Below, piece after piece: positions 61,801 through 64,000 of a stretch of DNA of 64,000 nucleotides. The first letter of the stretch is position 1, and the number at the start of each line of letters is the position of its first letter. This DNA is from Escherichia coli (GTDB lineage Bacteria > Pseudomonadota > Gammaproteobacteria > Enterobacterales > Enterobacteriaceae), in assembly GCF_003019035.1 (NCBI RefSeq), contig NZ_CP027447.1; one strand, 5' to 3'. The position numbers are program-made.

Positions 61801-64000
61801 TTCAGTTCCTCTTCCACCTTGTCGAACACCTCACGGTTGAAATTTTTATACCCGGTCATTGGACCAGCGATATAAACCCTCACCCTCACGCCATCACCTC
61901 CTGAAAATTACCCTGATAAAACGCCAGCACACGCTGCATAACCTCACTCTGACGGCACTCACGGCAAATTATGTTCTGGCTCCTGTCGTAGCGGCGTATT
62001 TCTCCGTCTGGTAATTTTCGAATCAGTGTCAGGTCGGTTCTTTTCTCCGGTGTCTTACGCCATTCGCGATACGTCTGCTCTGACGCAAAAACACCGTATT
62101 TACCGGACATGTATAAATCGCCACAAGCCAGCACATCCACAAGGCAGCGTCGGACCGAATGCCAGCCTGCCCCAGTCGCCCTCTCCAGCTGCGACATCGT
62201 CATGCGTTCATTTTTGCGTACCAACCCGATAATTCGTGCCTTCAGCTCTTCCCGCTGTTCGGGTGTATATGCTTTTGCCACAAGCCCTCCTGAAAAATCA
62301 CCTTCACAATTCATACAAAACCAGCCGCTTTCCGGCGCTCATATTCCTGTTTCAGCAACTCAATTGGTGTTGGCCACGACGGGCGTTCTGGTGCTGCCAG
62401 TTGCCGCCGTACGGGCGGAACGCTGAAGCCATTACCAACATGCTTTGCCCATTTCGTCAGCTGCCGTTCTGCAAGCCGTTTTAACTCCCCTTCGGTCATC
62501 TGGCGCTCAATCCCCTTTGAACGCATCTCGAGACAAATGTGATACAGCACAGGCTGAGACCACGGATATTTATCGCTCCCGTCGTATCGCCAGGACTCGT
62601 TGCGCCAGCGGCAGTACTCCACCATCACGGCATCCACCGTCAGACTGAATGGATTGGCCCCGCTTTCCGAAATCAGCGCCACAAACTCAGCCAGGTCCGG
62701 AGGCCATGTTTCACCCGCCCGGCAGCGGTCCATGCACTGGCGGCAGACCTGCCGGATTTGCTGCTCAGTCATCGCACCAATCTGTGCAATCCAGAGCTTC
62801 GAAGGTGCGGCCCCGTTCTTCTGGGTCCAGCGGTTCGAATAAACCTCCCCCATGAGTTCCCACAGCTTCCACGCCGTTTCCGTCGCTGATAAATCCGTTT
62901 TCACGTTCCCACTGCTCACGTGCTGCCCGAATTTCCTGAACTGCCCGTGATGCGGTGCCACCTGGTGCTGCTGCATGGCTCCCCCCCTTGCTGACTGGTT
63001 TAACCTGTGCCCTGACGTGATTTACGTGACGGGCGAATTTCTGCTCCCACTGAACCTGCGTGAAAACTTTACCCTCCGCTGCCCAGTAGTCCCGGAAGGC
63101 GGCAAGTTCAGCTGGTGTAAATTCCGGCTCCGGCAGAGCCACTCCCCACAGAGCCGCCCGTCGTCGAAAATCCGGCGACGGATGCCAGCCATCGGTTATC
63201 GGAAATTTCCCGATGGGTTCGCTCAGGCCTTCCAGGTAATCAGGTTCCGCTGTCTGCAACGGCACGCCATTTGCCTCACTGGCCGGAGCACTCTCGCGCA
63301 CGCGCGCGTTATGTGTGGGGTTTAATTCTTTATCTGTATCTTTATCTGTCGTGACTCGTCGTGACATGTCGTGACATATGCGTGACTCGTCGTGACACCC
63401 CTCATTCTGTTTTCGTAATTTTTCCCTCTCGCGCTGCGCTCTCTTGCGCTCTGCCGGGGATTTCGCGGTTTGTGAAACGTTGCCATTGTCCTCTTTCAGT
63501 ACCTGGCGTTTTTCCCATCCAGTGATTAAATCTCCATCAAGTACCCGCCCCTGCATTGCCTGTAAAATTGAATCAATTACTTCTTCCGTCACATCAAGCG
63601 CACTTGCTAAATCTTCCGTCGTGACATCAATGTGACCACGTAGTGACACGCCGTGACATGTCGTGACATTTCGTGACGCGCTCACCAGAAGGTGGATATA
63701 CACAGCCATCACTGTTGCGATTGGCTGTCCTGACACCCTGGAAATTGTTCGCCACTTAGGATCATTTGGCATGTCATGCCATAATCTGAGCCAGGCGTTA
63801 GCCATACTCACCTCTTCTGATACCGAATCTTTTTACTCACGAGTTGCCGGAAGCGATTCGATATGGCTATTGTCAGTCAATGTACTGCCACAGCATTTCC
63901 TGCCGGGCCACCACGGTTCATCTGATTGAAACCGGCGATTGCCACTGCGACAAAATCATCAGCGTCTCTCACCAATCGCTCCCGCGTCTCCACCAGCTCC

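What the first reader, a model, noticed from the sequence alone, without database searches (positions are those of the whole stretch)
62765..63811. Two CGTGAC iteron arrays inside the helper O-like gene
Lambda has one iteron block within O. Here there are two arrays (63330-63400 and 63621-63684) about 220 bp apart in the same ORF. Either the origin is bipartite or the annotated O start is too far upstream.
Basis: seen in the sequence. Interest (0 to 1): 0.35.

Follow-up and report, generated by a model that had tools for sequence, protein, structure and literature searches.

The report
Second iteron array inside initiator gene
A prophage replication-initiator gene in E. coli carries two separate clusters of the short DNA repeat its own protein probably binds, and comparison with about 230 related phage loci shows that both clusters are preserved as DNA signals, so the replication origin probably has two parts.

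Summary
The minus-strand gene 62765..63811 (probable start ATG 63805) holds two same-orientation arrays of GTCACG units spaced 10-11 bp apart. Six units lie at 63620-63677 and five at 63350-63396. The paired pattern occurs nine times in 64 kb, all here, against 0.32 expected.

The mis-annotated-start reading is rejected. Homologues align from residue 1, and the codons upstream of the 5' array show protein-coding conservation.

The two-part-origin reading is supported by comparison, though binding is untested:
- All 80 close relatives keep both arrays, with varying copy number.
- 18 of 49 diverged lineages have two arrays, and the unit (GTCACG, GCAACG, GTGACG, GTAACG, GAAACG, CGAACG) always changes in both together.
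- Third codon positions inside the units are about 0.95-1.0 conserved, against 0.55 elsewhere.
- The 5' array sits at different protein sites in different lineages, which implies repeated gain.

The 3' array encodes a disordered interdomain linker. It alone is followed by a family-wide AT-rich, purine-skewed tract (63320-63349). This resembles lambda O, pSK41 Rep and SPP1 gp38.

The 5' array, inside the coding sequence of the winged-helix DNA-binding domain, is the unusual part. Its role (helper or brake) is open. The protein is not a lambda O homologue. Verdict: new variant of a known kind, moderately interesting.

The parts
62765..63805 (-). Replication initiator gene. The ORF is listed to GTG 63811 (348 aa); the probable start is ATG 63805. 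It has an N-terminal winged-helix domain, an iteron-encoded linker and a C-terminal DnaT-like domain.
   Evidence: ORF list. Pfam DnaT PF17948, aa 203-269, 62.9 bits. PHROG replication-initiation families, E 1e-117 to 1e-212. Homologue starts. AF2 model.
63620..63677 (-). 5' iteron array of six units. GTCAC starts on the minus strand at 63677, 63667, 63657, 63647, 63636 and 63625; four units are exact GTCACG and two differ by one base. It encodes residues ~43-62 (SRNVTTCHGVSLRGHIDVT), a strand/loop segment between helix 2 and the HTH.
   Evidence: Third-position conservation 0.996 in core codons. Present in all 80 close relatives with 4, 6 or 7 copies. AF2 secondary structure.
63350..63396 (-). 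3' iteron array of five exact GTCACG units, starting on the minus strand at 63396, 63386, 63375, 63365 and 63355. It encodes a disordered linker (GCHDESRICHDMSRRVTT).
   Evidence: pLDDT below 50 for residues 137-165. An equivalent array is present in 44 of 49 lineages.
63320..63349 (-). AT-rich, purine-skewed tract immediately 3' of the 3' array (coding strand ACAGATAAAGATACAGATAAAGAATTAAAC, about 23% GC). It is the candidate DNA-unwinding element.
   Evidence: Family-wide, the 36 nt after the 3' array have GC 0.40 against 0.59 in the N-domain and purine 0.77 against 0.55, n=42 lineages, Wilcoxon p 9e-12 and 3e-8. No such tract follows the 5' array.
63327..63341 (.). Mosaic junction. To the right, the N-domain, both arrays and the upstream genes are about 90% identical to phages Evi, Tritos and 640R1. 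To the left, the C-terminal domain and the P-like gene are 94-96% identical to Rac-SA53 ydaU/ydaV.
   Evidence: Megablast query ranges 3-1042 and 1028-1701 of window 62300-64000; annotation of both phage types.
63397..63619 (-). Inter-array segment (223 bp) encoding the HTH helices, the wing and a basic helix. It is not AT-rich (GC 0.48).
63005..63205 (-). Coding region of the DnaT-like ssDNA-binding domain (aa 203-269 of the 348-aa ORF).
   Evidence: Pfam PF17948, E 2.4e-17. NCBIfam DnaT equivalog scores 94 bits, below its cutoff of 201.
62311..62976 (-). Lambda P-like helicase-loader gene. Its start overlaps the 3' end of the initiator gene by about 210 bp.
   Evidence: Pfam Phage_lambda_P PF06992, E 7.3e-15; RefSeq annotation 'replication protein P'.

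Best explanation
Both repeat clusters are binding-site arrays (iterons) for the winged-helix N-terminal domain of the initiator that this same gene encodes. Together with an adjacent AT-rich tract they form a replication origin embedded in the gene.

The 3' array (63350-63396) and the AT-rich, purine-skewed tract (63320-63349) are the core origin. They sit in the stretch that encodes the flexible linker between the DNA-binding domain and the exchangeable C-terminal domain. That domain is DnaT-like here and is followed by a lambda P-like helicase loader. This is the same plan as lambda ori in O, pSK41 ori in rep and SPP1 oriL in gene 38. The initiator coats the 10-11-bp-spaced units on one face of the helix. 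The neighbouring AT tract opens, and the C-terminal domain hands the site to P-DnaB.

The 5' array (63620-63677), 223 bp away, has the same unit and orientation but no AT tract of its own. It is an accessory array. It most likely cooperates with the 3' array by raising local initiator occupancy, or by looping or wrapping the intervening DNA into one larger origin complex.

Shown here: the repeats, their DNA-level conservation, their joint change of unit sequence, the AT tract and the domain layout. Inferred: binding by the N-domain, unwinding at the AT tract, and the positive role of the 5' array.
For: 1. Clustering is far beyond chance: 9 paired matches against 0.32 expected, all in the two arrays.

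2. All 80 close IMG/VR relatives keep both arrays, while copy number varies (5' array 4, 6 or 7; 3' array 3 to 9). The window's 7-aa insertion relative to phage Evi equals two extra units.

3. In 151 diverged loci grouped into 49 lineages, 44 have the 3' array and 18 have both. The unit differs between lineages (GTCACG, GCAACG, GTGACG, GTAACG, GAAACG, CGAACG) but is always the same in the two arrays of one lineage. Flank controls never showed two arrays.

4. Across 30 representatives below 93% nt identity, third codon positions in unit cores are 0.996 (5' array) and 0.947 (3' array) conserved, against 0.546 for 108 other codons. Mann-Whitney p is 2e-6 and 2e-4. The units are read in all three frames (VT / CH / SR), so the peptide follows the DNA.

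5. The 5' array lies at different protein positions in different lineages: the loop at res 41-64, an insertion at res 24-31, and res 71-86. It is inverted in L125. This implies repeated gain.

6. An AT-rich, purine-rich tract follows the 3' array in nearly all lineages but not the 5' array.

7. The mosaic junction lies at the AT tract, so the N-domain and both arrays travel as one module.

8. The AF2 model shows a winged-helix N-domain, with the 3' array encoding a disordered linker.

9. Lineages with only the 3' array carry slightly more copies in it (median 5 against 4, p=0.027), which fits additive contributions.
Against: No binding, unwinding or origin activity was measured. No experimental paper on this initiator family was found.

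More than half of the lineages (26 of 49) manage with the 3' array alone, so the 5' array is not essential to the design.

No conserved helical phasing between the arrays was found (Rayleigh p above 0.2 at 10.4-10.5 bp per turn). The gap varies from 127 to 298 bp. This gives no positive support for a fixed loop geometry.

The copy-number compensation is weak (p=0.027, uncorrected).

A negative regulatory role for the 5' array fits the same comparative data.
Confidence: 0.6

Rival explanations
1. The 5' array is a functional initiator-binding array, but it acts as a brake rather than a helper. It could titrate initiator or pair origins ('handcuffing', as incA of P1 or incC of F does). Alternatively, bound initiator could block RNA polymerase about 130 nt into its own gene and so autoregulate initiator synthesis and transcription through the origin.
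For: The unit and orientation match the 3' array, and there is no AT tract of its own. Its position early in the gene suits a roadblock. Many lineages lack it, as expected for a modulator. In iteron plasmids, a second array is classically a negative control element (established knowledge of P1 and F). No promoter-like site that it could repress directly was found, which leaves roadblock or titration.
Against: Lytic phage replication has no obvious need for copy-number limitation. Lineages without the 5' array tend to have more 3' units, which fits additive positive action better. Repeated independent gain at several sites shows it is advantageous but does not tell the sign of the effect.
Confidence: 0.27
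2. The 5' array is a second, independent origin of the same type, so there are two initiation sites within one gene.
For: It has as many units as the 3' array (6 against 5 in the window) and the same consensus.
Against: It has no adjacent AT-rich, purine-skewed tract (GC 0.52 downstream against 0.36 after the 3' array, in 18 lineages). That tract is the family's most constant feature next to the 3' array.
Confidence: 0.05
3. The second array is only coding sequence whose codons happen to look repetitive, with no DNA-level function.
For: Homologous proteins align across it, and it lies inside a folded domain's coding region.
Against: Third codon positions in the unit cores are essentially invariant while other codons vary. 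The units are read in three different frames. The unit changes in step with the 3' array across lineages. Copy number varies by whole units. The array occurs at non-homologous protein positions in several lineages.
Confidence: 0.03
4. The gene start is mis-called, and the true protein begins downstream of the 5' array, which would then lie in an upstream leader.
For: The listed GTG start is probably 2 codons too early.
Against: W5, R7, D15, P16 and K17 are nearly invariant across 71 diverse homologues. Codons 5-42 show a coding-type substitution pattern. The AF2 model is confident for residues 11-40. A Shine-Dalgarno-like GAGGTGA precedes ATG 63805. GenBank annotations of related phages start at the same position.
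Confidence: 0.01

Closest known systems
Phage lambda O / ori-lambda (and Stx-phage O with six iterons)
   Same: The origin lies inside the initiator gene, with iterons followed by an AT-rich tract. The N-terminal part of the protein binds the iterons and the C-terminal part works with the P helicase loader. Iteron number varies between relatives and adds amino acids to the protein (PMC7466680). The N-domain-plus-origin and C-domain-plus-P modules are exchanged as units; this point rests on established knowledge of lambdoid hybrids.
   Different: There is no sequence homology to O (Pfam finds only DnaT). The units are about 10-bp direct repeats spaced one helical turn apart, not 19-bp units with internal symmetry. 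There is a second array 223 bp away inside the coding sequence of the DNA-binding domain, whereas lambda and the Stx phages have one contiguous block.
pSK41 Rep (RepA_N plasmids of staphylococci)
   Same: The three-part plan matches: a winged-helix N-terminal domain, a central linker encoded by the origin (four Rep boxes centrally within rep) and a host-specific C-terminal domain. Natural chimeras have their junction at the N-domain-plus-origin block (PMC5703833). RepA_N structures (4pta, 5kbj) were among the weak fold matches.
   Different: The fold match is not significant (E about 1) and there is no sequence match. pSK41 has a single central group of boxes and no second array in the N-domain coding region.
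SPP1 gp38 replisome organizer / oriL and oriR
   Same: The origin-binding protein binds direct repeats next to an AT-rich unwinding element located within its own gene. A second copy of the repeats exists elsewhere (PMC6316719). There are weak PHROG 'replisome organizer' and 'DnaD-like' matches, and 2 of 71 family members match Pfam Phage_rep_org_N.
   Different: SPP1's second site (oriR) is a complete origin with its own AT-rich element about 13 kb away. Here the second array is 223 bp away, inside the same gene, and has no AT tract.
Two-array iteron systems: P1 (incC/incA), F (ori2/incC), P4 (ori/crr)
   Same: Two separate arrays of the same initiator-binding unit serve one replicon. One array is next to the unwinding site, and the other is auxiliary (required in cis in P4, a negative regulator in P1 and F). 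This rests on established knowledge, not on tests here.
   Different: Those arrays flank the initiator gene or lie kilobases away, with units of about 19-22 bp (P1, F). Here both arrays lie within the coding sequence and use about 10-bp units.
SaPI / PICI origins
   Same: Short (about 6-bp core) iterons occur in two sets (PMC6092414).
   Different: In PICIs the two sets flank the AT-rich melting region, and the origin lies outside the coding sequence next to pri-rep. Here the inter-array DNA is not AT-rich (GC 0.48-0.53), and the AT tract lies outside the pair, 3' of the second array.
Bipartite chromosomal origins (Bacillus subtilis, Helicobacter pylori oriC)
   Same: Two clusters of initiator boxes are separated by initiator coding sequence, and only one cluster adjoins the unwinding element (PMC3479198 title and abstract, as listed).
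   Different: The initiator there is DnaA, the clusters flank the whole dnaA gene, and the replicon is a chromosome.

Membership tests
Lambda O protein family (Pfam Phage_rep_O) | Sequence homology to the O N-terminal domain | tested here: not met
   The Pfam scan at E<=0.01 returns only the DnaT domain. The profile of 71 N-domains gives no Phage_rep_O hit.
Lambda O protein family (Pfam Phage_rep_O) | Followed by, and working with, a lambda P-type helicase loader | tested here: met
   The next gene, 62311-62976, matches Phage_lambda_P at E 7.3e-15. The functional interaction was not tested.
Origin embedded in initiator gene (lambda O / pSK41 Rep / SPP1 gp38 architecture) | Tandem direct repeats (three or more) in the segment encoding the linker after the DNA-binding domain | tested here: met
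   Five GTCACG units at 63350-63396 encode residues 137-152, which are disordered in the AF2 model. An equivalent array is found in 44 of 49 lineages.
Origin embedded in initiator gene (lambda O / pSK41 Rep / SPP1 gp38 architecture) | AT-rich unwinding element adjacent to the repeats | tested here: met
   63320-63349 is about 23% GC. Family-wide GC is 0.40 against 0.59, p 9e-12. Unwinding itself was not tested.
Origin embedded in initiator gene (lambda O / pSK41 Rep / SPP1 gp38 architecture) | The initiator's N-terminal domain binds the repeats specifically | not testable with these tools
   Indirect support only. The unit sequence changes together with the N-domain lineage, and the N-domain and arrays are inherited as one mosaic module.
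Origin embedded in initiator gene (lambda O / pSK41 Rep / SPP1 gp38 architecture) | Replication starts there | not testable with these tools
   This needs origin mapping or a mini-replicon assay.
Phage replisome organizer N-terminal domain (Pfam PF09681) | Match to the family profile above threshold | tested here: inconclusive
   The window protein has no hit. Two of 71 relatives match (best E 3.9e-5). There are weak PHROG replisome-organizer and DnaD-like matches, E 1e-7 to 2e-3.
DnaT (primosomal protein I) | DnaT DNA-binding domain present | tested here: met
   PF17948 scores 62.9 bits against a cutoff of 25, aa 203-269.
DnaT (primosomal protein I) | Full-length equivalog of E. coli DnaT | tested here: not met
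   NCBIfam NF002770 scores 94 bits against a cutoff of 201 and matches only aa 195-271.
SaPI/PICI-type origin | Two iteron sets flank the AT-rich region | tested here: not met
   The inter-array DNA has GC 0.48 (window) and 0.53 (18 lineages). The AT tract lies 3' of the second array.
P1/F-type iteron control (second array as handcuffing or titration site) | The second array negatively regulates replication | not testable with these tools
   The comparative data do not give the sign of the effect. The location also differs, inside the gene rather than flanking it.

The most novel reading that the evidence does not exclude
A widespread family of phage replication initiators (E. coli, Aeromonas, Pseudomonas and Ralstonia phages, and many metagenomic viruses) has repeatedly acquired a second iteron array inside the coding sequence of its own DNA-binding domain. 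That array changes unit specificity in lock-step with the linker array, so part of the DNA-binding domain's peptide is dictated by the domain's own binding site. The origin would then be a genuinely two-part, probably looped, structure that I could not find described for phage initiator genes.
Probability: 0.5. Interest if true: 0.65.

Novelty: new variant of a known kind. Interest (0 to 1): 0.55.

Why it matters
Origins embedded in initiator genes are textbook (lambda O), but they are described as one block of iterons in the interdomain linker. Here a second array of the same specificity sits inside the coding sequence of the DNA-binding domain. It is conserved at synonymous sites, changes unit sequence together with the first array, and appears to have been gained several times at different protein positions.

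If it is functional, three things follow:
- It provides a natural and easily manipulated system, because synonymous recoding can separate the DNA signal from the protein. That system could test how auxiliary initiator sites help or restrain origin firing.
- It is a clear case of a protein segment whose sequence is set by a DNA-level signal read in three frames.
- It gives a practical rule for predicting origins and replication-specificity (incompatibility) groups in thousands of unannotated prophages. A match to this gene is found in about half of complete E. coli genomes (2591 of 5426, over at least part of its length). In some of them it is mislabelled 'pyocin large subunit'.

Tried and rejected
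- **Helical phasing between the arrays.** A Rayleigh test over 18 two-array lineages at periods of 10.0-11.0 bp was not significant at 10.4-10.5 (p above 0.2). It was marginal (p about 0.04, uncorrected) at 10.0-10.1. This gives no usable support for a fixed loop geometry.
- **Sequence search of the N-domain profile against PDB chains.** Nothing was found (best E 0.58).
- **Foldseek of the AF2 model against PDB.** Only generic winged-helix proteins came up (CAP, MarR, GntR/DasR, ArsR, RepA_N), none with E<=1e-3. The fold class is supported but no family assignment is possible.
- **Pfam on 71 N-domains.** Only weak HTH_Crp_2 matches (9 members) and Phage_rep_org_N matches (2 members).
- **A third array elsewhere in the 64-kb window** (as with SPP1 oriR or P4 crr). 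None was found.
- **Promoter-like sites in or near the arrays.** None was found in 62700-64000, so direct promoter repression by the 5' array is not indicated.
- **A DnaA-box-like ATATCCACC just upstream of the 5' array.** It has two mismatches to TTATCCACA, and it encodes the 'VYIHLL' peptide, which varies among homologues. It was dropped.
- **Literature.** Seven full-text searches found no description of this family's origin or of two arrays within a phage initiator gene. The key review (Weigel and Seitz 2006) is not held, so prior description cannot be excluded.
- **Compensation between arrays.** Single-array lineages have only slightly more 3' units (median 5 against 4, p=0.027). This is suggestive, not decisive.
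Full report
**1. What is in the sequence**

The minus-strand ORF 62765..63811 (348 aa) contains eleven units with the core GTCAC(G) on the coding strand, all in one orientation. 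They are spaced 10-11 bp apart and fall into two groups.

- The 3' array in gene orientation has five exact GTCACG units starting at 63396, 63386, 63375, 63365 and 63355.
- The 5' array has six units starting at 63677, 63667, 63657, 63647, 63636 and 63625. Four are exact and two differ by one base.
- The 12-nt consensus is the same in both arrays (c.TGTCACGACg).

The bare hexamer is not enriched in the window as a whole (32 against 26.7 expected), but 9 of the 32 hits lie in 330 bp. The spaced pair GTCAC-N4-7-GTCAC occurs nine times in 64 kb, only here, against 0.32 expected.

That stretch is a different element, an AT-rich tract.

**2. The gene**

Pfam finds only a DnaT DNA-binding domain (aa 203-269). 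NCBIfam's DnaT equivalog is matched in that part only, below its cutoff. PHROGs place the protein in replication-initiation families. The next gene, 62311-62976, is lambda P-like. The gene is thus an initiator that is O-like in role and position but not an O homologue.

RefSeq E. coli genomes hold near-identical copies, annotated 'DnaT-like ssDNA-binding domain-containing protein' or, wrongly, 'pyocin large subunit'. No origin or repeat feature is annotated in any of the related phage records I opened.

The likely start is ATG 63805 rather than GTG 63811. The GTG lies within a GAGGTGA Shine-Dalgarno-like sequence, and homologues begin MANAW or MSNSW.

An AlphaFold2 model of residues 1-165 was built on 71 homologues (mean pLDDT 75.5). 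It gives these elements:

| Residues | Element |
|---|---|
| 16-25, 29-45 | Two helices |
| 46-62 | Strand/loop segment |
| 63-70, 74-84 | HTH pair |
| after 84 | Wing |
| 117-137 | Basic helix |
| 137-165 | Disordered tail |

The 5' array encodes residues ~43-62, the strand/loop segment. The 3' array and the AT tract encode the disordered tail. Fold search returns only generic winged-helix proteins, none significant.

**3. The gene is a mosaic**

Window 62302-63341 is 94-96% identical to the C-terminal part of ydaU plus ydaV of Rac-SA53 and to a phage labelled as infecting Actinobacillus. Window 63327-64000 is about 90% identical to phages Evi, Tritos and 640R1. The junction lies in the AT tract just 3' of the 3' array.

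The N-domain and both arrays therefore travel as one module, separate from the C-terminal domain and the P-like gene. This is the expected behaviour if the N-domain recognises the arrays, and it parallels pSK41-type chimeras (PMC5703833).

**4. Close relatives**

All 80 of the nearest IMG/VR loci (83-100% identity) keep both arrays. Copy number varies by whole units, with 4, 6 or 7 in the 5' array and 3 to 9 in the 3' array. The window's 7-residue insertion relative to Evi (TCHGVSL) is exactly two extra units. Two loci are frameshifted within the 3' array (L076, L084), consistent with unit slippage.

**5. Distant relatives**

Named phages first showed the pattern.

- Aeromonas pAEv1818 and Pseudomonas Marin, phita81A and PACT201 (54-62% identity) keep GTCACG arrays at the same two gene positions.
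- Ralstonia phage Hennie has GCAACG in both arrays.
- A Manatee Spring podovirus has CGAACGC in both arrays.

I then took 151 diverse loci and searched each, without prior motif, for the 5-mer that forms the best chains at 9-12 or 19-23 nt spacing in the first 660 nt of the gene. The loci were grouped at 70% identity into 49 lineages:

| Arrays found | Lineages |
|---|---|
| Both arrays | 18 |
| 3' array only | 26 |
| 5' array only, by my thresholds | 3 |
| Neither | 2 |

Equal-sized flanks gave at most one chain of 3-4 copies and never two arrays.

The units fit (t)G-NN-ACG(C): GTCACG, GCAACG, GTGACG, GTAACG, GAAACG and CGAACG. In every two-array lineage both arrays carry that lineage's unit. 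Such joint change is hard to explain unless both arrays are read by the same diverging DNA-binding domain.

**6. Selection acts on the DNA, not the peptide**

I made a codon alignment of 30 representatives of the GTCACG lineage, all below 93% nt identity to each other. Third-codon positions inside unit cores are conserved at 0.996 (5' array, 8 codons) and 0.947 (3' array, 5 codons). The value for 108 other codons is 0.546. Mann-Whitney p is 2e-6 and 2e-4.

The 10-11-bp period makes successive units fall in all three frames (VT, CH, SR). When the unit changes to GCAACG, the peptide changes to AT, CN, QR. The peptide follows the DNA.

Homologues do align across both arrays, but for the opposite reason to the one supposed.

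**7. The start is not mis-called**

Residues W5, R7, D15, P16 and K17 are nearly invariant in 71 homologues. Codons 5-42 show conserved first and second positions with free third positions. The model is confident there.

**8. Which array is the core origin**

The 36 nt immediately 3' of the 3' array are AT-enriched and strongly purine-skewed on the coding strand in nearly all lineages. GC is 0.40 against 0.59, and purine is 0.77 against 0.55 (n=42, Wilcoxon p 9e-12 and 3e-8). The motifs are of the type AGATAAGAGAAG. In the window this is 63320-63349 (about 23% GC).

The 5' array has no such neighbour (GC 0.52 downstream; inter-array GC 0.48-0.53). The 3' array plus tract therefore matches the classic iterons-plus-AT-rich design of lambda (PMC7466680), SPP1 oriL (PMC6316719) and pSK41 (PMC5703833). 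The 5' array is an accessory site rather than a second complete origin. The layout also differs from PICI origins, where two iteron sets flank the AT-rich region (PMC6092414).

**9. The 5' array has been gained more than once**

Mapped on the protein alignment, it lies in the loop at residues 41-64 in most two-array lineages. There are three kinds of exception:

- It is an insertion at residues 24-31 in L208/L209, L164 and L114.
- It overlies residues 71-86 in L184.
- It is an inverted array in L125.

On a rough neighbour-joining tree built from array-free columns, the trait needs at least 11 changes, against 24 for shuffled labels. It is inherited within two large clades and turns up separately elsewhere. 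The tree is crude, so the count is only indicative.

**10. Mechanism and open points**

Most likely the N-domain coats the one-turn-spaced units. The AT tract next to the 3' array opens. The C-terminal DnaT-like domain and the P-like loader then bring in DnaB. All of this is inference by analogy with lambda.

The role of the 5' array is open. A helper role, meaning higher local occupancy or a looped or wrapped complex, is weakly favoured because lineages lacking the array carry slightly more 3' units (median 5 against 4, p=0.027). I found no conserved helical phasing, and the gap varies from 127 to 298 bp. A brake role (titration, handcuffing, or a roadblock to transcription of its own gene) fits the same comparative data, and I give it about a quarter of the probability.

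**11. Novelty**

Seven full-text searches found no description of this family's origin, or of two arrays inside a phage initiator gene. The main review of phage replication modules is not held, so earlier mention cannot be ruled out.

I rate the finding as a new variant of a known kind. The embedded iteron origin is classical. The second array, which changes together with the first and has been gained repeatedly inside the DNA-binding-domain coding sequence, is the new element.

**12. Limits**

- Array calling used simple thresholds: exact 5-mer seeds, one-mismatch extension and at least three copies.
- Lineages are single-linkage clusters.
- Many loci are metagenomic contigs of unknown host.
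- Nothing here measures binding or replication.

Noticed in passing
window 62765-63811; RefSeq hits H83-H85; Salmonella phage VB_ST_SPNIS2: Near-identical copies of this replication initiator are annotated 'pyocin large subunit' in several RefSeq E. coli genomes and in one phage record. This looks like a propagated misannotation. Other copies are named 'DnaT-like ssDNA-binding domain-containing protein'.
   Followed up: partly
window 62302-63341 against PP818812.1: The C-terminal half of the initiator and the P-like gene are 96% identical at DNA level to 'Actinobacillus phage vB_Apl-pPE4'. That is closer than to E. coli phage Rac-SA53 (94%). Such identity between an E. coli prophage and a phage of a Pasteurellaceae host is unexpected. 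It may reflect recent transfer or a host or contamination problem in that record.
   Followed up: no
L076 (3' array, about locus 1324+410..) and L084: Two close relatives have a frameshift inside the 3' array that truncates the initiator. One has one unit fewer (4 copies) and the other one extra (6 copies). This suggests that slippage by a 10-11-bp unit is a recurrent way of inactivating these genes, unless it is an assembly error.
   Followed up: no
window 63295-63317: A GC-rich alternating purine-pyrimidine run (CGCGCACGCGCGCG) lies just 3' of the AT tract, in the Rac-type module. The terminator scan flagged it as a weak stem on the + strand. Its significance is unknown.
   Followed up: no
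window 63767-63783: A near-perfect palindrome, TGGCATG-T-CATGCCA, sits at codons 8-13 (LWHDMP), and it partly resembles the unit flank ATGTCA. Third positions there are not unusually conserved, so it is probably a by-product of the conserved peptide.
   Followed up: partly
window 63327-63349; homologues: The AT tract is itself repetitive. The window has TCTTTATCTGT twice on the + strand, which is (A)CAGATAAAGA on the coding strand. Other lineages carry GATAAG, GAGAAG or TAGAG repeats. The trinucleotide-like periodicity on the purine strand might matter for single-strand binding, for example by the DnaT-like domain, but this was not examined.
   Followed up: no
L125 (nt 201-259 of the gene): One lineage carries six units in the opposite orientation (CGTGAC on the coding strand), inserted in the HTH-coding region. 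Judging from its peptide (vtqhvtqchaasravtt), it also seems to keep direct-orientation units at the usual 3' site. It is the only inverted case seen.
   Followed up: partly
Rac-SA53 ydaU (L002 2964-4034): The Rac-type initiator shares the C-terminal half and the KDTD..ELNPTH junction peptide but has an unrelated N-domain. It showed no comparable repeat array in a simple k-mer count, so its origin signals, if they lie within the gene, must be of a different kind.
   Followed up: partly
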